Positions 12,578-60,701 of a stretch of DNA of 64,000 nucleotides are shown here, piece after piece. The notes under the pieces were generated by a model, which saw nothing but the letters and a program-made list of their open reading frames with translations, was not told the origin of the DNA and did not search any database. Position 1 is the first letter of the stretch; each line of letters begins with the position of its first letter. Both the position numbers and the translations under genes were made by a program. Source of the DNA: Cyanophora paradoxa CCMP329 (taxonomy: Eukaryota > Plantae > Glaucophyta); contig QPMI01000565.1 in assembly GCA_004431415.1 (NCBI GenBank), positions 1 through 64,000 on the forward strand, given 5' to 3'.

Positions 12578-15164
12578 ATGAACAAAATCGAGAAATTCGC
12601 CACCCCTGTTGAAAATGCTACATTCCTTAGTACTCTCATTGGTGATCGCAACAAGGTCACCCATGTATTTGATTCTGCTGAAGATGCCTTGAAGCAATTG
12701 ATAATAGCAAGGTTAAGACCTGGGCTGAATGCATTCAGCCTGAACAAGTCACCAGAGTTTACCTGGACCTGGATAGATTCGTTGATTTGAAGGAGAACAT
12801 TGCTGATAATTATGCTGAGGCGGAAACTGTTGTAAGAGAGATGAGAGATAAGTTATGGAAGCGATCTGGGACCACTTCAATTAACGATATTGCTGTTGCA
12901 GTTCGCCATAGAAAGGTCCATTTGATCAAGGAGGATGGTATTAAGTTCAAGATCTCAGCCCACTTTATCATTAAATCGCTTGCATGCAAACATGAAGATA
13001 TCCCAAGCTTTTCAAAGCTATGGATTGGTGCAAAATGAGGATTATGACAGTGGAGTTTACAGCTCCACACAGAACCTTATCTGCCTCAATTGCTGCAAAG
13101 GTGAGACTCTCGATGCTCAAAATAAATCAAAGAAAGATGTTGATAAAAACGTTTGCTTTAAGAAATTCGTTGACTGTGACAAAGTGTTAATGCGAAATGA
13201 GGACTTCTTTGTATCTTTCTTCTCAGCTTCTACTAAACTTGTGGATGAATCGAATATTTCTGCATTCGCAAATTATAGCCCTGAGCCAAAACCAGTTAAA
13301 AAGGAGCCAAAAAGTGATAAAGTGAAGACTGAGAAGGTAGAAGCTGAAAAAGACACTGAACCCGAAAATCCTGTTACTTTCGAACTGCTACAAAGTGTTA
13401 TAATGGGTCTAAATGGTGAGAGAGCTAATGAGTATAAAACTTGGATTGATGTAGGACTGGTCATCATCAATGTTGGGGAAGACAACAAGTTCACCCCTAA
13501 AATGCAAGCTGAACTCTTCCACCAATTCTCAGAACAGAGTGACAAGTATGATTATGATGAATGCCAGGAGAAGTTTACACAGCTTCGCAGAAGCAAGAAG
13601 AAGGCTGAGCCTGGCAAAGTGTTGACCTTCAAATCCTTGGTTTATTGGTTGAGCAAAGATAACAATGAGCTTTTCAAGGAACTCTTCCCCAAAAAGTATG
13701 CATTCCTACCAGAGGACACAGATGAAATCGATTACAAGACTGCAAGTATCCCTCCTTTGGCTGAACATTACAATGTGCATAAGAGGTATTTCAATGCTCG
13801 AATGCATCATGTTGAAAATGTTGGTTGTGTGATGCTCTGGGATGAACAACTACTTTGCTGGATGCCCAAAGATATTGGAAGCTCTCTACAAAGCATTTCC
13901 CCATTTGATGCATAAGGTGATTGTCAATGAGGGAACAGATAATGAGAAAGAGAAATGGGAGCAATCATTTAGGAAATGGATTGTGGATCCAACAGCCACA
14001 AGATCAACTTACATGGATTTCCTTCCCCTCCTGCTTCTCTCAGTGCAAAATGCAAGTCTGTATTTAATCTCTATCCAGGAATGAAGGTCGACCATCAGCA
14101 ATTCGAAAATGCTCCAGAGGATGTAACTGCTGAGATGATTAAGCCTTTCCTAGATCACTTGTTCTTAATGTCTGGTGAGGATCAAAATACCTATGAATAT
14201 CTGTTGAAATGGTTTGCCCACATGCTGCAAAAGCCTGGGAACTCAATGGAGTATCCTTAATCTTCATTGGTGAGCAGGGAACTGGTAAAAATGTGTTGGT
14301 TGATACTTTCCAAAAGAAGATACTTGGAGATGCCCTAAGTTATGCAACTGGAAAGCCAAAAGAGGATCTGTTTGGTCGATTTGCCCACAATAGAGAGGAT
14401 AAGATCTTGATTGTTGTGAATGAAGCCTCAGGCAAGGACACATTCGAAAATAATGATATGCTCAAAGATCTCATAACTTCTGATAAGATTGTAATTGAAC
14501 ACAAAGGGATAGATTCATACACAAAAAGCAACTTTGCCAGGATTATATTCACCAGCAATAACAACATTCCAGTGAAAATTGAAGCTGGAGATAGGCGATT
14601 TGTGGTTGTTGAAGTTAGTAAGAAATTCGCAAAGGATAGGTCATACTTCCTTCCACTTGTAAAATGGCTAAATGATCACTGCAATATTCGAAACATTGCC
14701 CACTATTTGAGAACCAAAGTTGACTGTGAGGATGTGAACTGGATTGCTGATAGACCCCTTACAAATAAATACTATTTAGCCCAACAGGTGTGCGCTCCAA
14801 TCATTCTTATGTTCACTAAGTGGCTTGTGGATCGAGGCTTAATTTCCGAGAATAAATGCAAGTCTGGTAGCCTTGTGGAAACCTGGAAGTGGTTCCAGGA
14901 GTTATTACCAGCAATAAATATAAAAACGATTATAATAGTCGCCGATATTATACTGAAATGAGAAGTGTTACATATATCCAAGTGAAAACTACAAATGGCA
15001 AACAATACTATCATTTCCTATTCCCACAAGTATTTGAGGAATTCAGAAAGATGAAGCTTGTAGATGATGAGACTATTGAGGAAGAAGCTAATCCAAGGAT
15101 GAAACAGGACCTACCTGCTGCTGATCCTGATGCATCAGATTATGATTCTGATGTTGAAGTTTAG
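12578..15164 (+). CDS. AEP primase-PriCT-2-SF3 helicase (frameshifted)
   Basis: SAHFII and DSGVYS primase-like motifs; PriCT-2-like YKTWIDVG..FSEQSDKYD; Walker A GEQGTGKN, VVNEA, IFTSNN, DRRF. Confidence 0.8.
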
Positions 15165-20609: not shown

Positions 20610-21907
20610 CTAGATTAATGCTGTACCCGTCTAGAAAATCAATATTAACGTTTGCTACGATATCTCAACACCAACTTATCAAATCGATGCGCTTAAAACG
20701 TCATAAAATCGAGCATTTCAAGGCGGTCACAGCGCTTATGAGCCATATCGGAATTTCACTAACTGTAACTCCAAATCGCGATGAAACCGATTTTGAATTT
20801 CGATTTTAAATTCGATTAAAATCCATTAAACGTGAGTTTTTAATATAGATCACTAGGAAGTTATCAAATCGATGCACTGACGGTCGAATATAATCACATA
20901 TATCATACATAACAATAACTTGCAATCACATATACGAATCGCAATGTGTATAGATCGCTATTACGATTAAAGCGAGTTTTGAAATTCAAAATTAATTCGA
21001 TTAAATTCGATTATAACTCAAAAATCGCGATTTATAACCATATACTTATCGTTTCGATCAACTTATGATATCGAATATTCAACTATATTATATTGCTTCG
21101 ATAACTGTGATCCCATCTATGATCCCATCAATCTAACACTGCATTTAGTAAGCATCTCCCCTTGATTCCCCCTATTATATTATATTTATATTTAAGTGGA
21201 CTCAAGGTTGACTCATATTAATCGTAAAAGTAGTAAAAGTATATGGATTTTGTTACGAATTCAATGCAAGGGTTGACTAAGTGGGTTGAGTTGACTCAAA
21301 TTTCACAGGAAATATTTGGGACCAAAAGTTTTCTAAAAAGGATTTCAAAAAATGTGTCAACTCCCCCCACTTAGTCAACCCTGACCATAAACAGTAAGGA
21401 TTTGAGCTAACATGTATCACAAAGTGAACATTTTGAGTCCACTTAGAAGATCCACTTTTGAAATCAAAGTTGATTTTGCTTGAAATTTCAAAGTTGATCT
21501 AAAAGTGAGTCCACCCTGATTGATTATGGTAACAAAGTTGACTAAGTTGACTAAGTTGAGTCATCTTAAGAAATTCAAGGAGACTAAGAGTTCAAAATGT
21601 TTATGAAAAGTGAGTCAACTTAGACCACTTATGATAACAAAGTTAAATATTTAATTGATTTAATCGGAAAAGAACATGATTTAATCGAATTTATTGATAT
21701 AATTCCGATTAGATTCATTTAGAATTCAATTAAAATCAATCGAAGTTATTGATATAATTCCGATTAACTACAATTAAGATACAATATCGATTAATCGAGT
21801 TTATCGATATAACATCGATTAAATTAATTGAAATTGCATATAAAAATATGAAAATTCATGTGAAAATTCAAATAAATTAATCGATTTTATTGATATAACA
21901 TCGAATC

Positions 21908-21980
21908 ACACATATGAATATTCATATTTTAATCCTGAGGCGGAACGCCGAGGGATTAAAATATGAATATTCATATGTGT
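21908..21980. repeat. Terminal hairpin of A: perfect 28-bp arms with 17-nt loop
   Basis: ACACATATGAATATTCATATTTTAATCC / GGATTAAAATATGAATATTCATATGTGT. Confidence 0.95.
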
Positions 21981-24900
21981 GACGCGCAGCGCGAGTACTA
22001 CAAACTCGAGAACGAAAAGAAGCAATGGAGCGAGCTGAAAGACAAGGAAATGACAGAGGTCGCGGAGAAGAAGGCGGAAGCGAACAAGCTGATGACAGAC
22101 GCGCAAAGGCAGGAAGAGAGCGCCCTCACCGCGCTAAGGTCGGCAGAGCGCCAGGTCGCGGAAGAGCGCACGAAAATGATACTCGAAGCCGAGGAGGAGC
22201 TGAAGAGGATAAACGAGCAAAGGGAAGCCGCCAAGGCGAAAAAGCTCCAGGAAATTGAGGCGCTTACCGCGGGCACAGAGCTGCTCGAGGCGCAGAGGAA
22301 AGAGATCGAGGATAGGAAGAAGAAATTGGAAAAGGAGGCAGAGGCAAGGAGGCAGCTGCTGGAAGAGGAAGAGGAAACGAGGAGAAAGGCAGGAGAGCTG
22401 CAAACGGGCGCGGTGCAGGAGGCGAACAGGCTCCGGGAGGAGATCAAAAATTTAAAGGAGGCGGCCGAGCGAGCAGACGAGCAGTCGAAAAAATTCAAGG
22501 CCAACGCGGACGAGCTGGCGCAGAGGCTGCTCAAGTACGCGGCCACCGCAGAGGCACGCTCGCCCATGGGGACGGCCGAGACGCAGACCACACCGAGGCC
22601 CGACCCGAGGCCGGCGGCAGAGAGGCTACCCTTTGCGCGTCTGGGTAGGAGCGACCAGGTGAAAGAGCTCATCGGCCTCACGGTCGAGGACCAGAGGGCC
22701 CTCTTCGATGCGTTAGAGCAGCGGCGCAGGGCGGACGAGGAGGCGGTCGCCAAGACAGAAGAGGAACGACTGAAGGCAATGCAAACTGCATCGGACGAGG
22801 AATTCGCACGTCTCGAAGAGCCAAAGGTTGCGGGACGGAAGAGGGCCCTCGAGGCCTTCAAAAACAACACCCTCGATGCCATGGGGGCAAAGATGCGAGA
22901 GCTGAAGAGAAACGAATCGCGCAACGGCGAGAAAATACGAGCTCTCGGGGTTGACATTCGCGACTTCACATATGTGATGAATCAGCTGACGGGCAGGGGC
23001 CAGAAAGACGCGGAAGAGCTGAGGAGAAAGATGGCCGATGAGAAGTGGAAAAACTTTGAGCGCGCGTACGTGCAAAGGTACATCAGCGATGCCATCTGGA
23101 TAGCATACGGCGACGCGGAGGAGATGCACCGCGAACTGCGGACCGAAGCGAGCCTATGGCGGGGCGGCCTCGAATGGTCACTGTACCGGATGCAAAAGGG
23201 GGAGTTTCTGGCAGAGCTGCGAGCCAATCCGAAAACGGTGAGCATCGGCGCACAGAGCGCGTACGTCGGCATGGTCAATTACGTGGAGAAGCTGAGCAAG
23301 TTTTGGGAAAAGCGAAGAGCCGTCATTCCAGCGGAGGGTCTTGCACAGTACGACGCCATGGTGCGCGATCTGGAGGCCTTTAAACGTGAGCATCCACCCG
23401 CCAAATACAAGCTTTACATAGATACAACGGCGTTCATAGGCGAACTAAGGAAGAGAGGAGACGAGGCCAAGAGTCAGATCGAGGAGCGCTACAGAAAGGC
23501 CCAAGCGGACAAGGAGTACGCAAACAGGGTGATTGAAGAGCGGAAGCAGCAGGCGAAGGAGAACGCGGCGAGACGCAACGCCGAGATAGAAGAGCAGAGG
23601 AGGAAGATCGCAGAGCGCAAGGCGGCAGAGGAGGAGGCGAGAAAAACAAAGGTAGAAACAGAGTACCAAGCCTTGAAGCGGGAGGCCAATCAAATATTAA
23701 AACGAAGGGGAAGGGCGTACGCCGATGAGGGCGCGGGCGTCGGCTTGGCCAGCCCAGACGACATCACACTCGCGGAGAGGGACGACGTTTCCGTGGAGGA
23801 GATGCGCCCGGGCACCGCCCGCCTGCCCTCCGAGGGCGTGTTTCAGACGCTCGACAGGCGCGTGATGGGCGACTCGGACGTTATTTTGCGCAACGCCCTG
23901 ATGCCCTACGGCGACTGGAACCGCGCCACCGCCGACGCCCTTGCGGATTTCGACCTCGAGCGATTCACCACCAAAGAGCAGCGCGACGCCTACCTGGGGC
24001 GCCCGAGGGCAAGGCGGCCCGGGGTGGCCAAGGAGGCCCTCAGCGCCGAGACGCTCTTCTCCGCGATGGGTACGGCGAACAACGATGGCATGCCCTTTGG
24101 TGTGGCCGACCTCTTCCAGGGGGCGGGTATCGACCTGGTGGGCGCCGGGCTTGGGGGTACGGGCTCAAGGGCCGGCAGACGACTGGGGGCGGGGGCGACC
24201 GGCCTTGGGCTGACGGCACTGGGCGGGCTACTCTCGTCCTACCAAGCCCTGGAGAGCGGACAGATCACGCAAGCGCAGTTCATGGACAACTTCCGCGACA
24301 GCATGATCATGACCGTGGGCTCGTTTGGCCTTCAGCAGGGGCTCACGTCCGGCCTTCAGTTCCTGAGACCTGGCATGAAGATTGGGTTCGTGGGTGGCAT
24401 GGGCCTGTCGATCCTCGCAGGAATGATCGCCGGCGTCTTCGTGGACATCCTGAACAAGAGGGATGTGGGTACCATCATCAAGAACTTTTTTATGTACCCC
24501 ATCAACTGGGCAGCCGATACGATTCAGTTCATCGGCAAGATCGCGCAGGACATGGTCGAGTGGGGCATTGAGACCTTCGGCTCCGAGGCCGAGCAACTGA
24601 GGATGCGGATTCGGCGAATTGAGGGCGAGCTAGGCGACAACCCCATGGGCGTTTTTACCGGAAGGGGCGGCGACAACGGGGCGCTGAAACTCATCATGGA
24701 GATCGAAACGCTGAAGATGGACGCTGGAAACCAGAAGCAGCCCGAAAGCCTGCAGAAGTTCATCCACGCACTCGACAACGCAATCAACGATTACCGTACC
24801 CCCAAGGACCAGAAGACTCTGCTCGAAATTGATCGTGCAACGGTGCTATACCTGTCGCAGCTCACGGAAACAATGCAGGATGGGCTACTGGCCCTGAACA

Positions 24901-34591: not shown

Positions 34592-36918
34592 ATGAACGCC
34601 AAACAGACCAAGTTAATTAAATCGCTCGCTAACTGGCTTCGTTCTGATGAGGAACTTGCCAAAAACATGATTATCCCAGTGAAACCTGACAGCAAAGACC
34701 CAGTTTTCAAGCATAAGGGAGGTGCTTGGTCCTGGGAAAAGTATGAGGAAGCGCTGGCAACTAATCAGTATGTATCTTGGGGCATTCTGCTCTCAGACAA
34801 CATGATGGTTATTGACTTTGATGATGAGGAGGACTTTGAGAAATTCCGAGATATGTTTCCTGATGACTTTGATGCCAATCAACCCATGGCAAAAACTAAA
34901 AAAGGCTATCATGTCTACTTTAAACGACCTGAGGAGTTCAATAAACTCAAAATCACCGATAAGGCTCCAGGCTTTAAAGGCTTTGAAAAGGTTGACCTGA
35001 AAACAATCACTGGAACTGGAACTTCTGGATTGATCAATGTTTGTCCTAGTGTGAACAAGACTTGGGTGATTGCCCCATGGGATGATACCTGTGATTTCAA
35101 TGAGCCTACTGATGAGTTCAAAAAGTGGATTATAGACAACTATATCTATAAGAGTGAGTATACTGCTAATGCTACCTCACATGATGAATTGGAAAAGAGT
35201 ATTATGAAAGAGCTGGTGGATATGGGCTTTATGCATCCCAATATAATCTCTAAAACTGAACTGGGCTTTAACTTTGATGCTGCTAATAAGGGACTCAATT
35301 GCCCATGCTGCAATGGGTCACATGAATCGAATAACTGGTATGTTATGAAAGCCAAAGGGGAAGATAAAAAGTATATTGTGTCCAGCTACAGTGGCAATTG
35401 CAAAAAACGATTTATCTTCATTGGAATGCAATCTGATATCTTCAATCTCATTGATAAATCCGCTGGCTCTGGAGGCGCTCATTATGATGTCAGTCTTGTG
35501 TGCAAAGAGGTCCTACAACACACTTGGAGATACTCCAAAAAGTCATGGTTCAAACTCAATACTGATACTGGGATTTGGGAGCATGATGACACAAACCAAA
35601 AGATTTACCTAGATATTAGTTGCCTTGTTGTCCCTCAATACCTTGGCAGGGCTGTGCATTATAGCCAAAGAGCTTTGAAGGATGAAGAGAATAGAACAGC
35701 TTTCGAAGAGAAATCAAAAACATTAATTTCTATTGCCAAAAATCTTAAACAATCAGGATATCGCAAATCCCTTCTGACTGATCTGCTCCCTCTGCTAAAT
35801 GATGATGAATTCTATGAAAAGATTGATACAGTTCCATATGTAATTGGATTCGATAATGGTGTATTTGATCTGACAACTATGACTTTCAGAAAGGGTAAAC
35901 TGGAAGATATGGTGAGCAAGAGTGTGGGTTATGATTTTACTGAGAATGTAGACCCCAAGAAAGTGGAGCATCTCAATCAGATTTATAGAGAGATTGTAGA
36001 TGATCCAGCAGAGCGAAACTATCTTCTGGCATCTATTGCAATTGCTTTGAGTGGATCAACAAAATCACAGAAGTTCTACATGTGGACTGGTGCTGGTGCT
36101 AATGGTAAATCACTTGTTCAGGAATACTGCAAACAGATATCTGGGGCTTATTACAGCCCTCTCGAAATATCGTATTGGACCAAACCTAAGAAGAACTCAT
36201 CAGATGCTACCCCTGAACTTGCCAAACTCCTGGGAAAGCGACTTGTATTCAGTAATGAGGCTGAAGATGGTGATAAACTGCAAATTTCCAAAATTAAGGA
36301 GGTCACAGGTGGAAATGAAATGACTGTGAGAGCCTTGTTCAAAGACCCAGTAATCCTCACTCCAATGTTCCAGGTTTACATTACAACTAATGACAATTTG
36401 ACTATAAATAAACCAGACTTTGCAATTCAAAGAAGGCTTTCATACCAGAGATTCAATAATATATTCAGAGAGAAGCCTGAAGCTGGTCAAAAGAAAGCTG
36501 ACCCAACTCTGTTCACACTTCTTCACAATGATGATGAGTATAAGATGGCTCACATGAAGATATTACTGGATATGTGGAAGAACAAAGAAGTTGAAGAGAT
36601 CTTAAGAAATCCCCTCAATCGATTATTGAGCAGGGAATAAACTTTATAGCTGAAAATGACAAGATTGGTGAATGGCTTAGGGATAATTTCGAAGTTACCC
36701 ATAATGCAAACGACTTTGTTTCGAGTGATACCATTTACAAATCATACAGAAGTGTGGATGATAAAGTTGAATGTGTTTCTGTGATGAAGAGAGTAAGGGA
36801 AATCTTCAATGTGAAATCAGAGGTTAAACGAATTCAGGGAACCAGAGCAAGGGGCTACATTGGACTTCGAAAGATAACAAGGGTTCAAGAAGACAATGGA
36901 GAGGATGTTGAATATTAA
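34592..36918 (+). CDS. Bifunctional Prim-Pol plus D5/P4-family SF3 helicase (one frameshift near 36620)
   Basis: IPVKP..K.P, VIDFD and KTKKGYHVYF Prim-Pol motifs; CPCC..H zinc motif; D5_N-like IGFDNGVFDL; Walker A GAGANGKS. Confidence 0.88.
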
Positions 36919-36960
36919 ACAAAACGATTTATGATTGAAATGTATATTTAATTTTTATAG

Positions 36961-37071
36961 CCTTACTGGAAATGGTGTTGTTCACAGGTGTCACAGGTCC
37001 ATCCCATCTAGGGGGCTATAAAAAGAAAAATGACCAGGGGACGATAAAAACCTGTGAACACCTGTGACACC
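36961..37071. repeat. B-type iteron array (GTGTCACAG) in inverted arrangement after helicase B
   Basis: TCACAGGTGTCACAGGTCCATCCCA (36982-37006) is the exact reverse complement of 53195-53219. Confidence 0.8.
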
Positions 37072-37138
37072 TATCGAAAAAGACCAAAATTTGACAAGAA
37101 TACTTAAGGCTTACTTGATTGTGTATAGTGAAGACAAA

Positions 37139-47858: not shown

Positions 47859-47883
47859 TTAAGATTCTCACACTATTACAAAG

Positions 47884-48951: not shown

Positions 48952-48973
48952 TATTGTCTACATAATATAAAGA

Positions 48974-49990
48974 ATGTCTACACAAATAGCTGTTCCTGTT
49001 TTCTGTTATGCTGCCCCAAAATTACATCAACTCAATCACACAGTAACAGATGCAACCCCTGGTTTATTTGCACTGAAACAACAGGAGCCGATTCATTTTC
49101 TCAAAACTCTGTGATCAGATGCAAAGAAATTCGATGTGATCGCAATGGGGCAAGGTGAGAACCACAGGTTTAATAGTTTCAAACAAGAACCAAGTTCAAT
49201 CAGGTCAAATTGTTTCCGATTCATCAATATATGATGATGTAGGAGGGTTCACCACACCCAAAATAGTAACATTTAACAACACAATCAATAACTCTGCTCT
49301 TGTTGTGAGAAGTGGAGGAGCTTACATTGGAGATGGGGCGAGAGTTGATGGAACTCTCACAGCAAATCAGGTAAGTATTACAGGAACAAGCACCTTTACA
49401 GGATTGGTAACAGCAAATGCTGGTATTTCACTACCAATTGCCTCACAATCCATAATCACAGCAACAAACAAGGTTGTCACACCAGAAATCGATACAGGAG
49501 CCAATGTAGACCTTCTTCTCAAACGAAATAGTAACACTGTCGCTACTCTGGAAGCGAATAGTTTGACAGTTAATACAGGGTGTTATCTCAAAACATCACA
49601 TCCACGATTTTCAGTTCAACTTGGCTACAATCACACTGCTACAACTTCTGCTGATCTAATAAACTGGGCAACAGTTCGAGTAAACAATACCAATTCATTC
49701 AGCACATCAACTGGAAGGTTCACAGCACCTGTTGCAGGACACTATCGTTTTTCAGTATTCACTTCTTCAACCACAACTTCTGCTATTGAATTGTTTCTCA
49801 GGGTAAACAATGCAGATCCAGGGGATTGAGCATTTCCCAAGTTCACAATCTGTCAACAACAAATAAAGCGCTGTGTTTCTCTTGCATTCTCAATCTTGCC
49901 CAAAACGAATTTGTTACACTTGTTACAAATTCAGTCGGTTCATATGCAAGTCAAACAGCCTTCTCAGGTGAATTAATAAGCATCGTTTAA
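48974..49990 (+). CDS. Fibre paralogue 2: anchor plus C1q-like head (frameshifted)
   Basis: KEIRCDRN, SGGAYIGDG, GRFTAPVAGHYRFS. Confidence 0.75.
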
Positions 49991-50012
49991 TTTTCTTATG
50001 GTAGTTTAGGAA

Positions 50013-50273
50013 ATGTCGAATATTTACCAAGTGGTTCTATCTGATATTGAGAAGTTGGGAATGGAATTTTGTGCTGCTTCTGTTCAGGATTGGATCGATA
50101 ATGCTGCCCATAACAGAGCAAGAATTGCAATTGATGAGATTGTTCAGAAAGAAATCCATTCTTGCATCTCAGGTGGAGTTCAAATACCAACCTCAAAGGA
50201 AGCGATTGTATTACAGGCATTCCAAAGGGGAACTGTGAAGAAAGCAATTGAGTATAACAATGTCACAGAATAG
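50013..50273 (+). CDS. Small fibre-associated protein
   Basis: QDWIDNA..NRARIAIDEIV; recalled (not searched) as resembling small ORFs next to phage tail-fibre genes. Confidence 0.55.
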   Translation: MSNIYQVVLSDIEKLGMEFCAASVQDWIDNAAHNRARIAIDEIVQKEIHSCISGGVQIPTSKEAIVLQAFQRGTVKKAIEYNNVTE

Positions 50274-50313
50274 TATTGTACATTATTTTCTTTCCTTCTT
50301 AGTAAAAGAAGCA

Positions 50314-51158
50314 ATGGGTGAATATAATCGAGTTCAACTGCCTATATATTCCTTGGATCCCCTGCAATGCATTTTCGCCAGCATGAAGTAAATGATGAGG
50401 TTCGTGGATTGGAATCCACAGAGAGACCCAATTCCAATGGCAACTCCTTTGATAAAAATTCGATTATTCGAGTTAAAGAGCTGAGAGCTGATAAGAACTC
50501 AGGTGTGGTGAAAACAACTCGACTTCTTGTCACAAATGCTAACTTTTTCCAGCCTACTAATGGAGGTCCTGATGCTTACAGTGTTGATCTGAAAGCCCTT
50601 GATTATGATAAAAACACTGCTGCTGTAACTGTGAGATCAGGAGGAGCTTTTATTGGTGGTGGCTGCAGAGTTTCAGGTCAGCTTTCATCCTCAATTTCGT
50701 ATAATGATGTCCCAGATACTCTTGAACAAAATGTAGAGAACCCACAACGAATTCGATTATATATACCAGTTGCACAACAGCCAATTATTCAATTTTACCA
50801 AGGTTATACTGTCACACTTGAAAACTCTGAATTGATTGAAGGAACCAAAAGAGTAATGAGAGGGCTGGTCATTCCTTCTGCAATGCTTTCTTTATGTAGA
50901 GCCAACAATAACCAGCCAGGTCACAGATACAATTTCAGTGTTCAAGGATATGATCATTTTGGCACAGGGTTCTGTGTTTATAATAACAATTTCACCTATG
51001 ATCTGTTTGTTACAGATATTGGAAAATATACAATTACAGTTATGGGTATCAGAACAGATATAGCTGCTGTCTCAGCTCTAAGAGGTGTTACTCCTGATAC
51101 TCTTTCTCAAACAGGGTTTTACCAAGAGCCAGATGTAATTGATGACCCAACCCCATAA
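50314..51158 (+). CDS. Fibre paralogue 3 (different head type; 5' frameshift)
   Basis: KELRADKN, SGGAFIGGG; ends MGIRTD. Confidence 0.7.
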
Positions 51159-51181
51159 AAGATATATCCCTTTAATGTAAA

Positions 51182-52012
51182 ATGGCTGAGCAACCCCCAC
51201 TTGAACGAATTATCACCCCACAACTATCATTAGCTGCACCTGCAAACCATGTTTTACAGCATGCTACCTTTGATGATGTGGAAGGTCTCCAATCCACAGA
51301 GGTCCAACCTACAATGAACACCTTTGGTTCCACCCACAAGCTGAGATTACAGGAACTCAGATGTGATAAAAATAATGGAATAGTTAAGACAACTAAGCTA
51401 CTTGTCACAAATGCAAACTTTTCTGCTCATTATGGAGACCCAGATAGCTATGGAGATCCTCTGTCTACTTATTCTTTTGAATCTAGGTCGGGAGCTATTA
51501 ACTGCAAATCGGGGGGAGCTTATATTGGTGATGGTCTTCGGGTTGGTGGGGCTGTTGGAGCGCCTTTATTTGTGAATGATCAACCCAATCCATTGATCCT
51601 AACACCAGAATTCGAACCTATGTCCCAGCATGAATGCCCCTATATAATCAAAATATTCCCCATTGTGGTAAATGAACAGACAGCAGTTGTAGACTCTCTT
51701 GTTGAGATTGGTGACCACTACAAGGTTGTTGTGGATATTCCACCAGATGTATATGCTGTATGTCAAGTGGAGGGTGGAACTCCTAATTTTGCAGTTGTGA
51801 TCACCCCATATGATAATTTCGGAATTGCTTATCATGGAGTCAATTTTGGTTTGGAAGATTATCAGTTCCTGGTTAGAGCCACCAAGTTTGGTATCTACAA
51901 GTGTGTATTATATGCTGAGAGAACTGATTTTATTGCAAAGCAGAATACCTATGCTGAGTACTATGGCACTAATCGATATTTCCCCATTTTTGGGCAGGAT
52001 ACTGCTCCATAA
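51182..52012 (+). CDS. Fibre paralogue 4 (head related to paralogue 3)
   Basis: QELRCDKN, SGGAYIGDG; YDNFG..YAERTD. Confidence 0.75.
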   Translation: MAEQPPLERIITPQLSLAAPANHVLQHATFDDVEGLQSTEVQPTMNTFGSTHKLRLQELRCDKNNGIVKTTKLLVTNANFSAHYGDPDSYGDPLSTYSFESRSGAINCKSGGAYIGDGLRVGGAVGAPLFVNDQPNPLILTPEFEPMSQHECPYIIKIFPIVVNEQTAVVDSLVEIGDHYKVVVDIPPDVYAVCQVEGGTPNFAVVITPYDNFGIAYHGVNFGLEDYQFLVRATKFGIYKCVLYAERTDFIAKQNTYAEYYGTNRYFPIFGQDTAP

Positions 52013-52034
52013 GAATATTGGTTATATATAGAGT

Positions 52035-52306
52035 ATGGATAGTAAAACAAAAAAGTTTATTGATGCTGCTATGACAGTTCATGGTAAAGATAAATTCGAT
52101 TACAGTGAGACACATTACATCAAAGCTCAAGAGAAAGTATCTGTTAGATGTTTGCAGTGTAATAAGGTGATCCTTACCTATCCCTTTAATCATGTGAAGG
52201 GATCAGGTTGCAGGAATGCAACAAAAAGCATTCTCAAGCTTATAGGAAAAGGGCTACTTCATCAATCACAGTGGAATATAGAGATGTTTGCATTAGGTTC
52301 GATTAG
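52035..52306 (+). CDS. Single DUF723-like Cys-rich repeat protein or endonuclease remnant
   Basis: HGKDKFDY..CLQC..NHVKGSGC resembles the repeats of 8804..9745; no nuclease domain. Confidence 0.55.
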
Positions 52307-52334
52307 GTTTAATAATTTTTCTAAGGTATTCTTA

Positions 52335-52733
52335 ATGGAGACTCAATACAGGGGCTTTCATGTTATGCTTGATTACAAGGCTAAAACAGCTATTGCAACA
52401 GGACATGAGCATGTAAGCTTCCTTGGTAATTGGATTATGAGAACCCTTGAACAAGCAGTATTAAGGCAAGGCATTAGGATTGTTCACAAACATTGTGAGA
52501 TATTTGATGGCAAAGTATCACCTCCTGGTTTTGCATTGGTTCTGCTATTAGATGAAAGCCATTGTACAGCTCATTGTTATTCCAATGAAGGCATGTTAGC
52601 AATTGATATATTCAGTTGTGGTAAAGACGCTCAGCATAAAACACAAGCAGTAGCAGATGAGATCGATAAAACAATGAATTTCTTAACATTTGAGAAGACT
52701 GAGAGGCATAAACATGATAGATTTCCGTTTTGA
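52335..52733 (+). CDS. speD: S-adenosylmethionine decarboxylase proenzyme (short prokaryote-type)
   Basis: G.HVMLD N-terminus, LLLDESHCTAH self-cleavage motif, AIDIFSCG. Confidence 0.85.
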   Translation: METQYRGFHVMLDYKAKTAIATGHEHVSFLGNWIMRTLEQAVLRQGIRIVHKHCEIFDGKVSPPGFALVLLLDESHCTAHCYSNEGMLAIDIFSCGKDAQHKTQAVADEIDKTMNFLTFEKTERHKHDRFPF

Positions 52734-52883
52734 TGGGTTTCTATAATGATGATCAGGGTGATTTACCTTTTTTATTACAATAACATTGATCAGCTATTAT
52801 AACAAAAGGATATAATATATCCCTTTCCTACAATAGAATATGTTACAATTTCGAATACTATCGATTTCCTTACAATAAAACTC

Positions 52884-53036
52884 AGCATCTCCCCTTCATT
52901 CCCCAATTATAATTTAAGTGGACTCAAGGTTGACTCATATTAATCGTAAAAGTAGTAATAGTATATGGATTTTGTTACGAATTCAATGCAAGGGTTGACT
53001 AAGTGGGTTGAGTTGACTCAAATTTCACAGGAAATA
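52884..53036. repeat. Relic A-type terminal/iteron segment within B's terminal region
   Basis: Near-identical to 21151-21314. Confidence 0.85.
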
Positions 53037-53108
53037 ACAATGAATCAGAGTATAAATGCATTTTTTGAATCAACTACACCAACTAACACTGAGATTTTAA
53101 CAATATAT

Positions 53109-53407
53109 GAGGTCCTTACTGAATATGGTATGTGTCACAGGTGTCACAGGTTTATCCCAAAGTTTCTCCTATAAAGAGTAAATTTCCAAAAGTTTGGGAT
53201 GGACCTGTGACACCTGTGACACTCGATTAAATCATTTATTCATTTAATTAGAAATACATAGATAAGATTATGACTGAGTTTTTCATTATAAAAGAGGTCC
53301 TTACTGAATATGGTATGTGTCACAGGTGTCACAGGTTTATCCCAAAGTTTCTCCTATAAAGAGTGAATTTTCAAAAGTTTGGGATGGACCTGTGACACCT
53401 GTGACAC
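53109..53407. repeat. Duplicated ~114-bp B-type iteron unit
   Basis: 53109-53222 and 53294-53407, each GTGTCACAGGTGTCACAGG...CCTGTGACACCTGTGACAC. Confidence 0.9.
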
Positions 53408-53660
53408 CCAATTATTCATTAAATTCCTAAGGGTCCCCCCTTAGACTCATTAAAACATGATAATAACATATCAATTTCATGTATAATTACGATTGAATTC
53501 AATAAGAGATCGATTTGTTTTATTAAACAAATGAATCTTTTATGGATCTTAATCGAGTTAAGCGATATGTTTACGATTAAATGAATTAAATTTAATTAAA
53601 TTTAATCGAGAAAGAACATGAATATAATATCGATTAAATCAATTAACAAAAAGACCAATC

Positions 53661-53688
53661 ACACATAGTAAAATGCGGAGTTTTAACC
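53661..53688. repeat. Inner 28-bp arm of B terminal inverted repeat
   Basis: ACACATAGTAAAATGCGGAGTTTTAACC; exact reverse complement at 57279-57306. Confidence 0.92.
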
Positions 53689-53723
53689 AGAGGCAAGATC
53701 TAATTGAGATTCAGTTATATTAT

Positions 53724-54094
53724 TGCGCTGAGCGGGATGCGCTAAGCAGTTGGCTAGGCCCAGAGGCGCCCCAAGCAGAGAGGGACAGGCCCGTACAGCA
53801 CCGTAGGGCGACGGCGAGCGGGTGCCATTACGTACACAGCAGGCGCAGAGCCGGCGTAAGACAGCAAGTAACAGGTACAGCGTAAGACAGTAAGTACAGA
53901 GAACAGGGACGAGAACGACAGCCAGCAAGCGAGCGCCGCGCAGGGCAAGCGAGGGCCCAGGGCTAAAATAAGCGGTCCAGTTGGCAACAACGTGGCACCA
54001 GGAATAGCAGGCTACAAAGGGTACAAGGCAAGGCAAGCTGCCGGCTTAGAGCCGACGACCAGGGCTAGCTGGGAGTCGGAAAGTGGGCGGCACA
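53724..54094 (-). repeat. 3' LTR
   Basis: Apparently identical to 56712-57082. Confidence 0.92.
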
Positions 54095-56711
54095 CGCTTC
54101 CCGCTACAAAAAGCCGTCCTCGGCGCTACGAGCTAAAGGCTGAACTAAAGCTGCGTAGGCGAGGCTGAACGGACTACGAGCCAAAAGCCGGCTACCGTCC
54201 CTGCACAGAAAGCCGTCCTCGGCGCCACAGCGGGCGGGCCAGAGGGGCAAATTAAAATCCATCAGGCCGTCGGCACCAGTATGAGGAACTGGGCCCAACA
54301 AGGAAAGTTGGGTGAGGGACCCACGACCTGACGCCAGAGCGCGCGGAGCGCCGCCAGCCAACCGGGGGCAAACCCTCTAAATCCCGCCGGAGGGGAAAAC
54401 CGGTTTGAACGAGTGCTAGCGCTAGCACTAAGCTCGAATTCGAAGCCGGCGCCGCGCCGCAAGCCGCCGGGCTGCGGCGGCGCCGGGTCGAAAGTTCCAC
54501 AGTGTAGAAGGTACTTGACGTAGAGTGTAGGAGTGTAGGACCGCAGGCTCGATCAGCAGAGCCGCAGCGGCAGAGTACGCGTTGCGGGCCAAGCTCGGCG
54601 CAGCTTGCCGCAGTGCGTTGCCAAGTGACTCGGCCAGCGGAGTCACGAAGCGGAGCGATCGGACAGCACAGTAGCGTGTGCAGCCGCGTACGCGTAGAGC
54701 AGGCAAGCCATGAAGAGTAGAAGCGGCGAGCCAGTCGTACGGGGTCAGGCTCCACAGCAGCAGCAGGCCACTGGTCGCATCATACAGACCCATCGCCAAG
54801 GATCCTCCGCGATCAGACGGGATGGCAAACCACGGATACAGCCATCGAGTCCGCCGGCATACGCTGATGCAGCGCGTAGCCGGGGCTTAGGCAGGCCACC
54901 ATCGCGGGACAAGAGACAGCATCAGCGCGGCCCGGAATGATCATCGGTGCTCGCGTGATAGTCGTAGGCAGACGTATGGACCTCTCAGCAGCGGAGAGTC
55001 GCAAGCGGAGGCTTGATCGGAAGCACCCGGACTAGAGCGCCGGTGCGTGCTGGCTTGGTCAGCGTGGAATCACCCACAGCTAAGCAGACCGAAACAGCGC
55101 TGGCGTCCAGCTGGCATCACCCAGCTGCCAGGTTCAACCGATGCACGGGAATCACCCGACGGGCCGACGCAGTCGACGCGCGAACGTGAAGACTGGTCGC
55201 GGGGCATCACCCAGTGCTGCTTGCTGACGCTCCTCAACAGATAGGTCCGCTGTCCGCCGTCCAACTTTAGCTATGGCTGCTCACGTCGTCGTAGGACGTT
55301 CCAGAGCGCATCCTTTACGCTTCTGATGACCTTCGCCCGCTGGACAGGCCTCGGTCAGACCTCCGCCCGCTGAACAGGCCTCGGTCGCTGATCAAACGCC
55401 CACGACAGGAAAGAACGACAGTCCGCACACGCTTGAGATGTGCGTGAAGCGACTGACATCTGGCTTGACGAGCTGGACGTCCCGGAGAAGGGCAGCTACG
55501 TCGTCGGAGCCAGGGCAAGGTCTTCGCATCTTGTCTGCCTTCTCGGTGCGACAGCGCGCACGGTAGACTGGACAACAGATAGATGCGCTTCCTCGCATAG
55601 AGATCGCTGTCAAGTGGAGCTGCGCCGGCTTCCACTGACGCGTACGCAACCCGCAGAGCCGAGAGAGACGCGGAGCCGCACGTCCTCTGGATGCAGGGTG
55701 GAGTCAAGTGGAGTGATCCTCACGAGGGATGCCACTCGCCGCCGCTGAGCGTGCCTCGGGAGGTCCGCAGGCGCCACAGCAGCCGTCGTAGTAAGACCTC
55801 GGGCGCGTACTGGGGCCATGTTATCCCAGGGGCTTTCACGTCGCAGCGGTTTGACTCCATGCGTTCTTCAGATACACTCGCCACCATTGAGCGTGCCTCG
55901 GGCTAGCCGGAGGTGCCATCGCAGCCGTCGTAGGTGAGACCTCGGGCGCGGACTGGGGCCATGTTATCCCAGGGCATTCACGTCTTGGCGGGCTGACTCT
56001 GTACTTTCTGCAGAGAGAAAAGATTGATTGACCGGCGCTTCATAGCTGCCTGGCGAGCCTGGCATGTCACGAGCATGCGGGCAACTCGACAAAACAAGAC
56101 GACGACGAAAAGAAGGTATGTTCATGAAGAATACTCATTCAGAGAGTTTCTATCATCATATGTCGCACAGTACGTGGACCAGAGAAGAAACGACATGCCA
56201 CGACGACAAGAAGGTCATCATTCGATCGGCGGCAACACGCAATTCGATCGTTATGACGACGTGTGTAGATGTAGAGGGTGTTGCTCCACATACAATACAT
56301 TTAGTAGTACGTTGTGGAGTCGTCCCCCGATACAATGCAATACAGTTTCACTCGACATGCGCGCGGGCTGCATCAGCATTTGCTCTTGAGCGCAGCCACG
56401 GCACGTTTAGGTGACTGTGAGCGCATGCGGCTCAATAGACGGGTTGGCGGACGCTTCCCACTACAGAAAGAGTGGTGCGCCGGGGCCGTAAGCAAGAAAA
56501 GGCGCGCGCAGTGGCGGGTGGAAAGGCATGAACCATGCGGTTCGCAAAGCCGAGCTCCGCGGCATAGGCGCTTCTCACTACAAGAGAGTGGAGGCCGTAC
56601 GCGCAAGCCGAGGCAAACGATGGCGTGCTTGTCCAGGGGTTCGGGCAAGAGCGCAGCGTTCGTCCCCAGGCATACGAGCTAAAAAGTCGAAGCCCAACGC
56701 AGCAGCCCCCA

Positions 56712-57082
56712 TGCGCTGAGCGGGATGCGCTAAGCAGTTGGCTAGGCCCAGAGGCGCCCCAAGCAGAGAGGGACAGGCCCGTACAGCACCGTAGGGCGAC
56801 GGCGAGCGGGTGCCATTACGTACACAGCAGGCGCAGAGCCGGCGTAAGACAGCAAGTAACAGGTACAGCGTAAGACAGTAAGTACAGAGAACAGGGACGA
56901 GAACGACAGCCAGCAAGCGAGCGCCGCGCAGGGCAAGCGAGGGCCCAGGGCTAAAATAAGCGGTCCAGTTGGCAACAACGTGGCACCAGGAATAGCAGGC
57001 TACAAAGGGTACAAGGCAAGGCAAGCTGCCGGCTTAGAGCCGACGACCAGGGCTAGCTGGGAGTCGGAAAGTGGGCGGCACA
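56712..57082 (-). repeat. 5' LTR
   Basis: Followed on the minus strand by the PBS-like TGGGGGCT. Confidence 0.92.
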
Positions 57083-57278
57083 TTATTCGGAATTTTATAC
57101 AGATTATCGATAGAATCAGTAAGACTAATCGGAAAATAAGAGAAATTTACGATAAAATATCGAAAAGAATACAAAATAATCGAAATAATTGAATATTCGA
57201 TAAGATATACACAGATTATCGATTGATTGAAATAGAATATACGAGATATATCAACAAAATCAATTAAGATAAGCCGAG

Positions 57279-57306
57279 GGTTAAAACTCCGCATTTTACT
57301 ATGTGT
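57279..57306. repeat. Outer 28-bp arm and terminus of B
   Basis: GGTTAAAACTCCGCATTTTACTATGTGT. Confidence 0.92.
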
Positions 57307-57592
57307 CTCTGATCAAACAGGGGCACCCCAAGCGACGGCGAAATCTTGAAAAGGATCACCTTGGCGTCGATTCCAGGAGTGTTTGCCAGGTTCTGCAAAA
57401 CGAAGAAGAAAATTTAGTTTCAAGCGGAAAGCTGACAGGTAATGTCAACGGAAACAAAGGCGAACCGGGAAAGCCTGCATAACCTTCAGAAGGAGCTGCG
57501 CCCCCTGAATAGCGGACGTTTCCTGCGCGCAATCGGCTTGCGTCAGCCTCTGAGCCTCCGGGCCACTTTCTGCAAAACTATTAGCTATAGTG
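57307..57592 (+). other. 286-bp target remnant between B and C, apparently two interrupted ORFs
   Basis: An ORF tail ending ..KTKKKI* is followed about 25 bp later by MSTETKANRE.., which is cut by C's terminus. Confidence 0.4.
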
Positions 57593-57665
57593 ACACATAT
57601 GAATATTCATATTTTAATCCCTCGGCGTTCCGCCTCAGGATTAAAATATGAATATTCATATGTGT
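57593..57665. repeat. Terminal hairpin of C
   Basis: Exact reverse complement of 21908-21980. Confidence 0.95.
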
Positions 57666-59313
57666 GATTCGATGTTATATCAATAAAATCGATTAATTTA
57701 TTTGAATTTTCACCTGAATTTTCATATTTTTATATGCATTTTCAATTAATTTAATCGATGTTATATCGATAAACTCGATTAATCGATATTGTATCTTAAT
57801 TGTAGTTAATCGGAATTATATCAATAACTTCGATTGATCTTAATTGAATCCTAAATGAATCTAATCGGAATTATATCAATAAATTCGATTAAATCATGTT
57901 CTTTTCCGATTAAATCAATTAAATATTTAACTTTGTTATCAGAAGTGGTCTAAGTTGACTCACTTTTCATAAACATTTTGAACTCTTAGTCTCTTTGAAT
58001 TTCTTAAGATGACTCAACTTAGTCAACTTAGTCAACTTTGTTACCATAATCAATCAGGGTGGACTCACTTTTAGATCAACTTTGAAATTTCAAGCAAAAT
58101 CAACTTGGATTTCAAAAGTGGATCTTCTAAGTGGACTCAAAATGTTCACTTTGTGATACATGTTAGCTCAAATCCTTACTGTTTATGGTCAGGGTTGACT
58201 AAGTGGGGGGAGTTGACACATTTTTTGAAATCCTTTTTAGAAAACTTTAGGTCCCAAATATTTCCTGTGAAATTTGAGTCAACTCAACCCACTTAGTCAA
58301 CCCTTGCATTGAATTCGTAACAAAATCCATATACTATTACTACTTTTACGATTAATATGAGTCAACCTTGAGTCCACTTTAATATAAATATTATATAATA
58401 GGGGGAATCTAGGGCAGATGCTTACTAAATGCAGTGTTAGATTGATGGGATCATAGATGGGATCACAGTTATCGAAGCAATATAATATAGTTGAATATTC
58501 GATATCATAAGTTGATCGAAACGATAAGTATATGGTTATAAATCGCGATTTTTGAGTTATAATCGAATTTAATCGAATTAATTTTGAATTTCAAAACTCG
58601 CTTTAATCGTAATAGCGATCTATACACATTGAGATTCGTATATGTGATTGCAAGTTATTGTTATGTATGATATATGTGATTATATTCGACCGTCAGTGCA
58701 TCGATTTGATAACTTGCTAGTGATCTATATTAAAAACTCACGTTTAATGGATTTTAATCGAATTTATAATCAAAATTCAAAATCGGTTTCATCGCGATTT
58801 GGAGTTACAGTTAGTGAAATTCCGATATGGCTCATAAGCGCTGTGACCGCCTTGAAATGCTCGATTTTATGACGTTTTAAGCGCATCGATTTGATCAGTT
58901 GGTGTTGAGATATCGTAGCAAACGTTAATATTGATTTTCTAGACGGGTACAGCATTAATCTAGAAAAAACCGCGTTTTTTTTTTACTTTTCAAGTTTCAC
59001 GGCGAACGAAGTAAAGGTTCCCGAGCGGATTTGAACCGCGTAGTTTTGAGTCAGAAATCAAGCGCTCTATTCTCTGAGCCAAAACGGCTTACCACCAAGT
59101 CGACTCCTGGGCTAGTGTTTCACCAAGTCTACTATGGCAAGTGACTTTTGCATCTTCAAACTGTTATATCTCATCACCAGATCATCAAAACGCAACGTTC
59201 TGCATATCGCTGTGAAGCGCTTGATACGATCTACAAGACTATGTGTATATCATGTGCATATATGTATATCAGTCATACATATATTTGGAAAAAACGAGTT
59301 TTTGCCTAGCAAA

Positions 59314-60698: not shown

Positions 60699-60701
60699 CT
60701 C

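What the first reader, a model, noticed from the sequence alone, without database searches (positions are those of the whole stretch)
52884..53407. B's terminus records an origin replacement: truncated A-type iterons next to duplicated B-type iterons
Seen: about 150 bp nearly identical to A's terminal region (21151-21314) breaks off after the first half of the A-type inverted pair and is followed by two B-type units. Inference: B descends from an A-like ancestor whose origin was overwritten when the helicase was exchanged, or B keeps dual specificity to exploit A's replication proteins.
Basis: partly seen in the sequence, partly recalled or inferred. Interest (0 to 1): 0.7.

Follow-up and report, generated by a model that had tools for sequence, protein, structure and literature searches.

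The report
Recombinant terminus of integrated polinton-like virus
One end of an integrated polinton-like virus copy joins a near-identical piece of a sister element's repeat block to its own kind of inverted repeats, which recur beside its own helicase gene and are likely helicase-specific origin sites: a tidy example of module swapping between endogenous viruses, not a new kind of system.

Summary
52884-53036 matches A's 21151-21314 (151 matches, 2 mismatches, 11 gap columns). Near-identity stops at 53036, inside an A-type inverted-repeat unit. Two B-type units follow (53088-53229 and 53273-53414, 93% alike). One correction: a degenerate second arm survives at 53070-53086, so the A-type unit is decayed rather than cleanly truncated.

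The window holds three AT-rich polinton-like or virophage-like integrated elements in GC-rich DNA. A and B share a morphogenetic module (92% identity) but carry unrelated primase-helicases.

The main new result is that each repeat type also lies directly downstream of its own helicase gene: A-type at 15175-15356, B-type at 36960-37075. The outer termini of A and B are diverged homologues.

Unitigs from 4 of 4 public runs cover the junction at high depth, so an assembly chimera is unlikely and many copies probably carry it.

Best reading: B is a recombinant, with one crossover inside the repeat unit. The units are likely helicase-cognate, origin-like sites. That function and the direction of the exchange are inferred. 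Both helicase genes here are frameshifted. No relatives outside this organism were found, so co-variation rests on two element types.

The parts
52884..53036 (+). A-like block at B's right end: AGCATCTCCCC... leader, direct pair GTGGACTCAAGGTTGACTCA (52918-52937) and arm 1 of an A-type inverted-repeat unit (about 52991-53025)
53037..53087 (+). B-specific spacer plus degenerate remnant of A-type arm 2 (53070-53086)
   Evidence: fold z -1.1
53088..53229 (+). B-type unit copy 1: arms 53132-53165 and 53189-53222, GTGTCACAG x2 per arm, centre CTATAAAGAG
   Evidence: (z -9.2)
53273..53414 (+). B-type unit copy 2: arms 53317-53350 and 53374-53407; tandem duplicate of copy 1 (93%)
   Evidence: z -11.1
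53430..53660 (+). Subterminal AT-rich region with CGATTAA-type repeats, a diverged homologue of A 21630-21906
53661..53689 (+). B-type terminal tip CACACATAGTAAAATGCGGAGTTTTAACC; its inverse copy lies at 57278-57306
53724..57082 (+). GC-rich LTR-like insertion between the two tip copies (not part of the terminus): 371-bp identical direct repeats, TG..CA ends, TTAT duplication
   Evidence: empty site in 3 of 4 runs
57083..57306 (-). Remainder of B's terminal structure beyond the insertion, ending in the inverse tip
36960..37075 (+). Internal B-type unit about 45 nt after the end of B's helicase reading frames
34592..36917 (+). B primase-helicase (Prim-Pol, D5_N, DUF5906). The last ~95 residues (36619-36915) are in another frame and are predicted to form a winged helix
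15175..15356 (+). Internal A-type module (direct pair plus inverted unit), 11 nt after the stop of A's helicase frames; 68% identical to 21194-21380
12578..15164 (+). A primase-helicase (PriCT_2, DUF5906), broken by several frameshifts
21151..21640 (+). A's terminal iteron region: counterpart block 21151-21314, unit 1 (arms 21269-21303 / 21348-21382), unit 2 (arms about 21535-21557 / 21608-21630)
21907..21982 (+). A's terminal palindrome (29-nt tip, 17 nt, inverse tip)
58259..58422 (-). Counterpart block in element C, an inverted copy of A 15751-21983

Best explanation
B's right end is a mosaic terminus of an integrated polinton-like virus. DNA nearly identical to sister element A runs up to 53036, inside an inverted-repeat unit. 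From there a diverged terminus follows, carrying two units of the type that also sits next to B's own D5-type primase-helicase gene. These units are likely the helicase's cognate binding or origin-like sites. B likely arose by recombination between an A-like and a B-type element, with one crossover inside the repeat unit.

Shown: the coordinates, identities and repeat architecture; the shared morphogenetic module; the two unrelated helicases; a copy of each repeat type immediately downstream of its own helicase gene; the diverged homology of the outer termini; and the presence of the junction in independent read sets.

Inferred: the C-terminal winged-helix domain of the helicase would read the tandem 9-mers. 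Two helicase assemblies would load head to head on the inverted arms and open the A/T-rich centre. The helicase-adjacent unit and the terminal units would act together as cis sites of one replicon. In the B lineage the older A-type unit would have become dispensable and decayed.
For: Element class: Pox_A32 ATPase in A and B; Prim-Pol/D5_N/DUF5906 in B; PriCT_2 plus DUF5906 in A; weak hits below the Pfam cut-off to rve and DNA_pol_B_2. GC is about 40% against about 60% in the flanks. There is a capsid-like lead for 7770-8702.

Mosaic structure: A and B share 10,898 aligned columns at 92%, ranging from 55% to 99% per 500 bp. Identity ends at 53036. The outer termini are alike far beyond shuffles (local score 60 vs 26 +/- 3.9; 0 of 300 shuffles reach it).

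Co-variation: all 10 exact GTGTCACAGG sites lie either at B's terminus or 45-150 nt after B's helicase. All 19 GTTGACTMA sites lie at the A/C termini, in B's block, or 11-100 nt after A's helicase. Internal and terminal copies are only about 68-70% alike but keep the arms and the centre. Long local inverted repeats are otherwise rare in A and B: 15 pairs in 41.6 kb, 13 of them in the terminal regions.

DNA-binding capacity: B's C-terminal piece aligns to the C-termini of D5-type primase-helicases. It folds at pLDDT 77. The best structural matches are RFX winged-helix DNA-binding domains (8zjr_M E 2.4e-4; 1dp7_P E 2.9e-3), and the ASFV PrimPol is also among the hits.

Not an artefact: unitigs cover the junction in 4 of 4 runs. 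X10 has 53007-53086 with 0 differences at depth 2379; X3 and X6 have 53027-83 at depths 2867 and 3744; X1 has tiling pieces. A single-copy flank has depth 28-116.

Context: a published model proposes that PLV inverted repeats serve as origins for the adjacent primase-helicase and that such end modules are replaced as units (PMC11296320, passages read).
Against: Co-variation rests on two element types in one window. C adds no independent helicase.

Both helicase genes here are frameshifted, so these copies cannot show a working pair.

B has no matching terminus at its left boundary near 34090, so this copy is incomplete. A's left end is off the window, so TIR status is unverified.

The bare 7-mer core is not specific: 34 of 68 loose A-type matches lie outside the clusters.

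The unit centres resemble the TATAWAAAG motif found upstream of both replication genes, which also fits a promoter.

No run holds more than 63% of the sampled words of 52300-53720.

No relatives outside this organism were found. One distant PLV-like contig gave only a low-complexity resemblance.
Confidence: 0.45

Rival explanations
1. B descends from an A-like element. When the helicase module was exchanged, the A-type terminal units were overwritten by B-type units, and 52884-53036 is the fossil left behind.
For: In B the A-type unit has lost its palindrome (z -1.1) and arm 2 is degenerate. The B-type units are a young tandem duplication (93%). The backbone is shared with A.
Against: The outer terminus right of the units is about as diverged as unrelated lineages of the same family, so more than the iterons differs. 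The arm-2 remnant is closer to A's internal copy (15/17) than to A's terminal copy (13/17), which argues against simple descent from A's terminal unit. A fossil should be more diverged than the coding backbone, yet the block is 123/124 identical, no different from 20% of backbone windows. Swapping A's capsid module into a B-type replicon explains the same two breakpoints.
Confidence: 0.18
2. The units are module-specific regulatory elements rather than helicase sites: a promoter or operator bound by a small DNA-binding protein encoded next to them (the 73-aa ORF 37139-37360 in B; the GIY-YIG gene 15408-15758 or another gene in A). They travel with the replication cassette.
For: Each internal unit lies 110-120 nt upstream of the next gene's ATG on the same strand. 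The centres are conserved between internal and terminal copies (CTATAAARAG, TTCTAAAAAGG). They resemble the TATAWAAAG motif found 26-70 nt upstream of both replication genes.
Against: The terminal copies have no downstream ORF of 80 aa or more. The motif clusters are absent from all other intergenic regions. Pfam finds no DNA-binding domain in the 73-aa ORF. In SV40-type origins the promoter and origin overlap (recalled), so this rival does not exclude origin function.
Confidence: 0.18
3. Dual specificity. B keeps the A-type direct pair and arm 1 so that A-type replication proteins can act on it in trans.
For: Five A-type motif copies are retained at 123/124 identity. Unitig depth suggests that the chimeric junction is carried by many copies.
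Against: The inverted arrangement that defines intact units is broken. The identity is not above the backbone level. There is no functional evidence of any kind.
Confidence: 0.06
4. The repeats are subterminal binding sites for the integrase or another end-processing protein, as in DDE transposons, not replication sites.
For: The motifs sit in both orientations within a few hundred bp of the ends. A and C encode an rve-like protein (below the Pfam cut-off).
Against: Each type also has a copy 6.8 kb (A) or 16 kb (B) from the visible end, right after the helicase gene. B shows no integrase gene in the window. The CGATTAA-type subterminal repeats and the tips, which A and B share in diverged form, are better candidates for end recognition.
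Confidence: 0.06
5. The junction is a chimeric assembly of A-type and B-type repeats.
For: The region is highly repeated, and many alternative continuations exist at 53036 and 53094. No listed unitig has 31 letters on both sides of the junction.
Against: Words spanning the junction occur in 4 of 4 runs from 4 studies, at depths 20 to 130 times the single-copy flank. One of these runs may be the source of the window. X1 pieces tile 52978-53092.
Confidence: 0.02

Closest known systems
Replicative end-module and replicon-replacement model for polinton-like viruses (Barth et al., Virus Evol 2024, PMC11296320; passages read)
   Same: The morphogenetic module is kept while the primase-helicase and terminal repeats differ. 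Inverted repeats are proposed as origins for the adjacent primase-helicase. A GIY-YIG nuclease sits beside a replicon locus.
   Different: In that paper the link is a hypothesis drawn from gene order. Here the same repeat is seen both beside the helicase gene and in the terminus, for two helicase types, with a crossover inside a unit. Here the integrase is rve-like, not a tyrosine recombinase. The helicase-adjacent unit is internal, not at the end.
Phage P4 alpha primase-helicase with ori and crr iterons (recalled, no call; a literature search for it found nothing)
   Same: A D5/P4-type primase-helicase with a C-terminal winged-helix DNA-binding domain. There are two separated clusters of short repeats in direct and inverted orientation, both acting as cis sites of one replicon.
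   Different: P4 is a bacterial satellite phage. There is no sequence relation of the repeats. Binding and the need for two sites are shown for P4 and only inferred here.
Origins of SF3-helicase viruses (polyomavirus large T, papillomavirus E1) (recalled)
   Same: Inverted arrays of short binding sites flank an A/T-rich centre that overlaps a promoter-like element. The logic of head-to-head helicase loading is the same.
   Different: The origin-binding domains differ. Nothing has been tested here. The spacers (23-60 nt) are longer.
Endogenous polinton-like viruses and virophage-like elements of protists with nested GC-rich retroelements (PMC12220804, passages read; PMC8547959, listing and start of abstract only)
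   Same: AT-rich 15-40 kb elements in GC-richer hosts, present in many copies, with modular replacement of replication genes and GC-rich insertions flanked by direct repeats.
   Different: The passages I read do not describe helicase-specific repeat units. Supplements were not opened and may hold TIR details.
Plasmid iterons and incompatibility groups
   Same: Short tandem repeats specific to one initiator. Exchange of initiator and iterons together defines a replicon.
   Different: Rep proteins are not SF3 helicases. Copy-number control by handcuffing has no evidence here.

Membership tests
Polinton-like virus / virophage-type integrated element | A32/FtsK-type packaging ATPase | tested here: met
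   Pox_A32 E 8.9e-12 (9812-10594) and 4.7e-11 (38741-39523), both above the cut-off
Polinton-like virus / virophage-type integrated element | Double jelly-roll major capsid protein | tested here: inconclusive
   No Pfam capsid hit. Atlas feature search of 7770-8702 gives viral clusters, some carrying Capsid_NCLDV/Capsid_N, with scores 0.96-0.98 but recognition 1722, below the 2300 mark.
Polinton-like virus / virophage-type integrated element | pPolB or primase-S3H replication protein | tested here: met
   B has Prim-Pol, D5_N and DUF5906. A has PriCT_2 and DUF5906. The closest relatives of B's protein are giant-virus D5 homologues at 32% identity.
Polinton-like virus / virophage-type integrated element | Integrase (rve or tyrosine recombinase) | tested here: inconclusive
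   rve E 2.4e-4, 21.7 bits, below the 32.6 cut-off, in C (59337-60698). None was seen in B.
Polinton-like virus / virophage-type integrated element | Terminal inverted repeats at both ends | tested here: inconclusive
   The left end of A and the far end of C are off the window. B has no inverse copy of its right terminus near 34090. Each visible end carries its own tip palindrome.
Polinton-like virus / virophage-type integrated element | GC contrast with host and many copies | tested here: met
   About 40% vs about 60% GC. Element unitig depths are in the thousands vs 28-116 for the single-copy 57356-57523. Depth is only a rough guide.
Iteron-type replication origin | Clustered short repeats in defined spacing and orientation | tested here: met
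   Tandem 9-mers in inverted arms
Iteron-type replication origin | Specific binding by the cognate initiator | not testable with these tools
   Only indirect evidence: repeat type follows helicase type, and a winged-helix C-terminal domain is predicted
Iteron-type replication origin | Replication starts there | not testable with these tools
   No data
P4-type ori/crr arrangement | Two separated repeat clusters plus a primase-helicase with a C-terminal DNA-binding winged helix | tested here: met
   Clusters lie at 36960-37075 and 53088-53414 (B), and at 15175-15356 and 21151-21640 (A). The winged helix is predicted for B only. A requirement for both sites is untested.
LTR retrotransposon (the 53724-57082 insertion) | Identical LTRs with TG..CA ends and a target-site duplication | tested here: met
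   371-bp repeats 100% identical, TG..CA ends and TTAT on both sides, empty site in 3 of 4 runs
LTR retrotransposon (the 53724-57082 insertion) | Reverse transcriptase / gag-pol genes | tested here: not met
   No stop-to-stop frame above 175 aa. 4 ORFs scanned without a Pfam hit. It is therefore a non-autonomous derivative at best.

The most novel reading that the evidence does not exclude
Endogenous polinton-like viruses carry portable replicon cassettes: a primase-helicase gene with its own inverted 9-mer origin unit, mirrored in the terminus. These cassettes define specificity groups much like plasmid incompatibility groups. The chimeric B terminus is a functional dual-origin end that lets B-type elements be replicated by A-type helicases in the same cell, so sister endogenous viruses parasitise each other's replication proteins.
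Probability: 0.1. Interest if true: 0.7.

Novelty: new variant of a known kind. Interest (0 to 1): 0.45.

Why it matters
How polinton-like viruses and virophage-like elements that use primase-helicases start replication is unknown. The passages I read state the link between their inverted repeats and the helicase only as a hypothesis. This locus gives concrete, short candidate recognition sequences for two unrelated helicases: GTGTCACAG arrays for a D5-type enzyme and GTTGACTNA arrays for a PriCT_2/S3H enzyme. It also gives a natural recombinant in which the two kinds meet inside one unit. That makes the hypothesis testable by binding assays and by a census of family copies. The finding adds no new kind of system. 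Module exchange, nested retroelements and multi-copy endogenous PLVs are all documented.

Tried and rejected
- No whole genome is held for the window. No earlier notes exist by place or by sequence.
- Exact-pattern scans of IMG/VR with the B-type 19-mer (25 loci) and the A-type 15-mer (15 loci) gave only unrelated contigs. Neither blastn nor tblastx against the window found anything.
- Protein-based locus searches found no usable relative. Helicase B in IMG/VR returned 0 loci. The ATPase gave none. Helicase A gave none.
- Both metagenome scans were empty: the A-type 23-base pattern and helicase B.
- Relatives of P0001 are giant-virus D5 genes and unsuitable for a terminus comparison.
- Generalisation test on a 26.6-kb IMG/VR contig that encodes a 37%-identical relative of helicase A. 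A 46-nt stretch just after the helicase resembles one near the contig end (76%), but the DNA is extremely A/T-rich and low in complexity, so the result is inconclusive.
- I tested whether the block is unusually conserved. It is not: 20% of backbone windows do as well.
- I considered a general hairpin gene-end signal (the mimivirus-type hairpin rule, recalled). I rejected it because long local inverted repeats are nearly confined to the termini and the helicase-adjacent units.
- I considered a MITE-like mobile palindrome. I rejected it because upstream flanking sequence is conserved together with the arms.
- A packaging signal is unlikely, because the ATPase is shared while the units differ.
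- PDB sequence search with the helicase C-terminus gave nothing meaningful. Pfam gave only a sub-threshold RFX_DNA_binding hit (E 0.025).
- Rfam gave no family in the window.
- No RNA holder was listed for the stretch.
- Literature: 'iterons'+'virophage' gave 1 unrelated paper. 'iterons'+'polinton' gave 0. 'iteron'+'polinton' gave 3 unrelated papers. The P4 search gave 0.
- The second Atlas query failed twice.
- Searches failed on wrong reading frames, and one search failed on a term that was too short.

Full report
**What the window is.** Base composition alternates between about 40% and about 60% GC. Self-comparison and Pfam resolve three AT-rich elements.
- A runs from 1 to 21982, and its left end is off the window.
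- B runs from about 34090 to 53689, and its terminal structure continues at 57083-57306.
- C runs from 57590 to 64000. It is an inverted copy of A 15751-21983 at 97-98.5% identity.

A and B both encode a Pox_A32-type packaging ATPase. B encodes a Prim-Pol/D5_N/DUF5906 primase-helicase (34592-36640). A encodes PriCT_2 and DUF5906 pieces (12935-15164) and a GIY-YIG protein. A and C also give weak hits, below the Pfam cut-off, to a DNA_pol_B_2 fragment and to rve. A capsid-like lead exists for 7770-8702, but no Pfam capsid hit. I read these as integrated polinton-like or virophage-like viruses. No tRNA and no Rfam family are present.

**The observation.**
- The block 52884-53036 matches A 21151-21314 with 151 matches, 2 mismatches and 11 gap columns, and matches C with 149/4/11. 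The last 124 nt are 123/124 identical to both.
- Identity ends abruptly at 53036, just after arm 1 of an A-type inverted-repeat unit. In A that unit has arms 21269-21303 and 21348-21382.
- Two B-type units follow (53088-53229 and 53273-53414, 93% alike). Each has 34-nt arms around a 23-nt loop and tandem GTGTCACAG 9-mers.
- The motif clustering is far above chance.
At 53070-53086 a degenerate inner half of arm 2 survives at the right spacing. It matches A's internal copy at 15/17 and A's terminal copy at 13/17. None of 1944 control windows reaches 15.
- The palindrome is functionally gone. DNA fold z is -1.1, against -6.9 and -5.1 for intact A-type units and -9.2 and -11.1 for the B-type units.

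Each repeat type has a further copy directly behind its own helicase gene.
- The A-type module (direct pair plus inverted unit) recurs at 15175-15356. This is 11 nt after the stop of A's last helicase frame, and it is 68% identical to 21194-21380.
- The B-type unit recurs at 36960-37075, about 45 nt after B's helicase frames end.
- All 10 exact GTGTCACAGG sites and all 19 GTTGACTMA sites fall in these clusters. The bare 7-mer core is not specific on its own: 34 of 68 loose matches lie elsewhere.
- The two helicases show no BLASTP similarity.
- Internal and terminal copies keep the arms and a short A/T-rich centre while the rest diverges.
- Long local inverted repeats are otherwise rare in the 41.6 kb of A and B.

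**The rest of the terminus.** Outside the units, B's terminus (53430-53689) is a diverged homologue of A's (21630-21982).
- Both share CGATTAA-type repeats and a CACACATA... tip followed by ..GAGGC.
- The local alignment score is 60, against 26 +/- 3.9 for shuffles; 0 of 300 shuffles reach it.
- More than the iterons therefore differs to the right of 53036. That side belongs to another lineage of the same family.
- To the left, the shared module is 92% identical overall and mosaic, ranging from 55% to 99% per 500 bp. The block's 123/124 identity is matched by 20% of windows. It is neither specially conserved nor specially decayed.
- The simplest account is a recombinant with two breakpoints. 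One lies inside the repeat unit at 53036. The other lies near 37386, between the helicase cassette and the morphogenetic module.
- Whether a helicase cassette entered an A-like element or an A-like capsid module entered a B-type replicon cannot be told from here.
- The arm-2 remnant suggests that the B lineage already had its own diverged A-type-like unit. The crossover would then have been homologous.

**Is the junction real?**
- Twenty of 24 listed runs of one coded organism hold part of 52300-53720. None holds more than 63% of the sampled words.
- All runs laid are Logan unitigs, not reads.
- Unitigs cover the junction in 4 of 4 runs. X10 has 53007-53086 with no difference at depth 2379. 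X3 and X6 have 53027-53083 at depths 2867 and 3744. X1 has pieces tiling 52978-53092.
- Other continuations after 53036 are also present: the A/C-type TTTGGGACC and a third variant. Another variant diverges at 53094.
- A single-copy flank (57356-57523) has depth 28-116 in two allelic forms. The junction therefore probably stands in tens of copies, though depth is only a rough guide.
- An assembly chimera is unlikely. One run may be the window's own source.

**Mechanism (inferred).**
- B's helicase gene is frameshifted near its end. The last ~95 residues (36619-36915) lie in another frame.
- That piece aligns with the C-termini of D5-type primase-helicases and folds at pLDDT 77.
- Its best structural matches are RFX winged-helix DNA-binding domains. 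The ASFV PrimPol is also among the hits.
- I infer that this domain reads the tandem 9-mers. I also infer that helicases load head to head on the inverted arms and open the A/T-rich centre.
- I further infer that the gene-proximal and terminal units are two cis sites of one replicon. This is the arrangement I recall for phage P4 alpha with ori and crr, and for SV40 and papillomavirus origins (all recalled, not checked by a call).
- A published model proposes that PLV inverted repeats serve the adjacent primase-helicase as origins and that such end modules are replaced together (PMC11296320, passages read).

**Evidence against this reading, and limits.**
- Only two element types support the co-variation.
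- A's helicase is broken by several frameshifts, and B's by one.
- B has no matching left terminus.
- The unit centres resemble the TATAWAAAG motif upstream of both replication genes, and the internal units lie 110-120 nt before the next ATG. A promoter or operator role for a neighbouring small protein is therefore a live rival.
- No relatives outside this organism were found in IMG/VR or JGI metagenomes.
- One distant contig was uninformative.

**Novelty.**
- Multi-copy AT-rich PLVs, modular replacement of replication genes and nested GC-rich retroelements are documented (PMC12220804, passages read; PMC8547959, listing only).
- Searches pairing iteron(s) with polinton or virophage returned only unrelated papers. 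Supplements were not opened.
- I rate this a new variant of a known kind: a concrete instance of replicon-module turnover with candidate cognate sites.

Noticed in passing
53724-57082: A GC-rich (about 62%) LTR-like insertion in B's terminal loop. It has 371-bp 100% identical direct repeats with TG..CA ends and TTAT on both sides. No frame exceeds 175 aa, and there is an internal 140-bp tandem pair (55733-56014, 82%). The empty site (53718 joined to 57082) stands in 3 of 4 runs, so most copies of this terminus lack the insertion.
   Followed up: partly
21907-21982; 57592-57666; 53661-53689 with 57278-57306: Every visible element end is a palindrome: a 29-nt tip, a loop, then the inverse tip. 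The loop is 17 nt in A and C and about 225 nt (plus the LTR insertion) in B. In B and C the outer tip starts GACACA where the inner one reads CACACA. I have no explanation. Possibilities are a hairpin-forming telomere-like end, or a remnant of a second element lying tail to tail.
   Followed up: partly
21297-21305, 15279-15286, 53019-53027: A-type units carry one TTCACAG(G) right after arm 1, and it is conserved in the 68%-diverged internal copy. It is the core of the B-type 9-mer. A's unit 2 also has a 9-nt tandem period (21537, 21546, 21555). The two repeat types may share ancestry or a common factor.
   Followed up: partly
34592-36917 and 12578-15164: Both primase-helicase genes are frameshifted, B once near its C-terminus and A at least three times. 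These particular copies are decaying.
   Followed up: yes
8716-9752: A carries a 1,044-bp insertion absent from B. It encodes a DUF4379 treble-clef zinc-finger protein (8804-9745).
   Followed up: no
57307-57589: Only about 283 bp of moderately GC-rich, apparently single-copy DNA separates B's end from C's end. Unitigs show two forms of 57356-57523 that differ at 12 positions and 2 gaps, at similar depth, probably alleles. The elements are clustered end to end.
   Followed up: partly
21983-34090: This 12-kb GC-rich stretch lies between A and B. A 1425-aa frame runs open from A's tip. Other ORFs give a sub-threshold C1q-like hit, RGI_lyase/fn3 hits and a GTCCCAA microsatellite (33690-33730). 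Host gene or another element is undecided. B has no terminus on this side.
   Followed up: no
47884-49829 and 42971-44527, 52035-52733: B's accessory genes include C1q-domain proteins (fibre-like), a patatin-like phospholipase fused to an F5/8 type C domain, and an S-adenosylmethionine decarboxylase-like protein.
   Followed up: no
L067:111-156 and 5874-5919: In an IMG/VR contig that encodes a 37%-identical relative of helicase A, the stretch just after the helicase gene resembles one near the contig end (76% over 46 nt). The composition is very A/T-rich, so this may be chance.
   Followed up: partly
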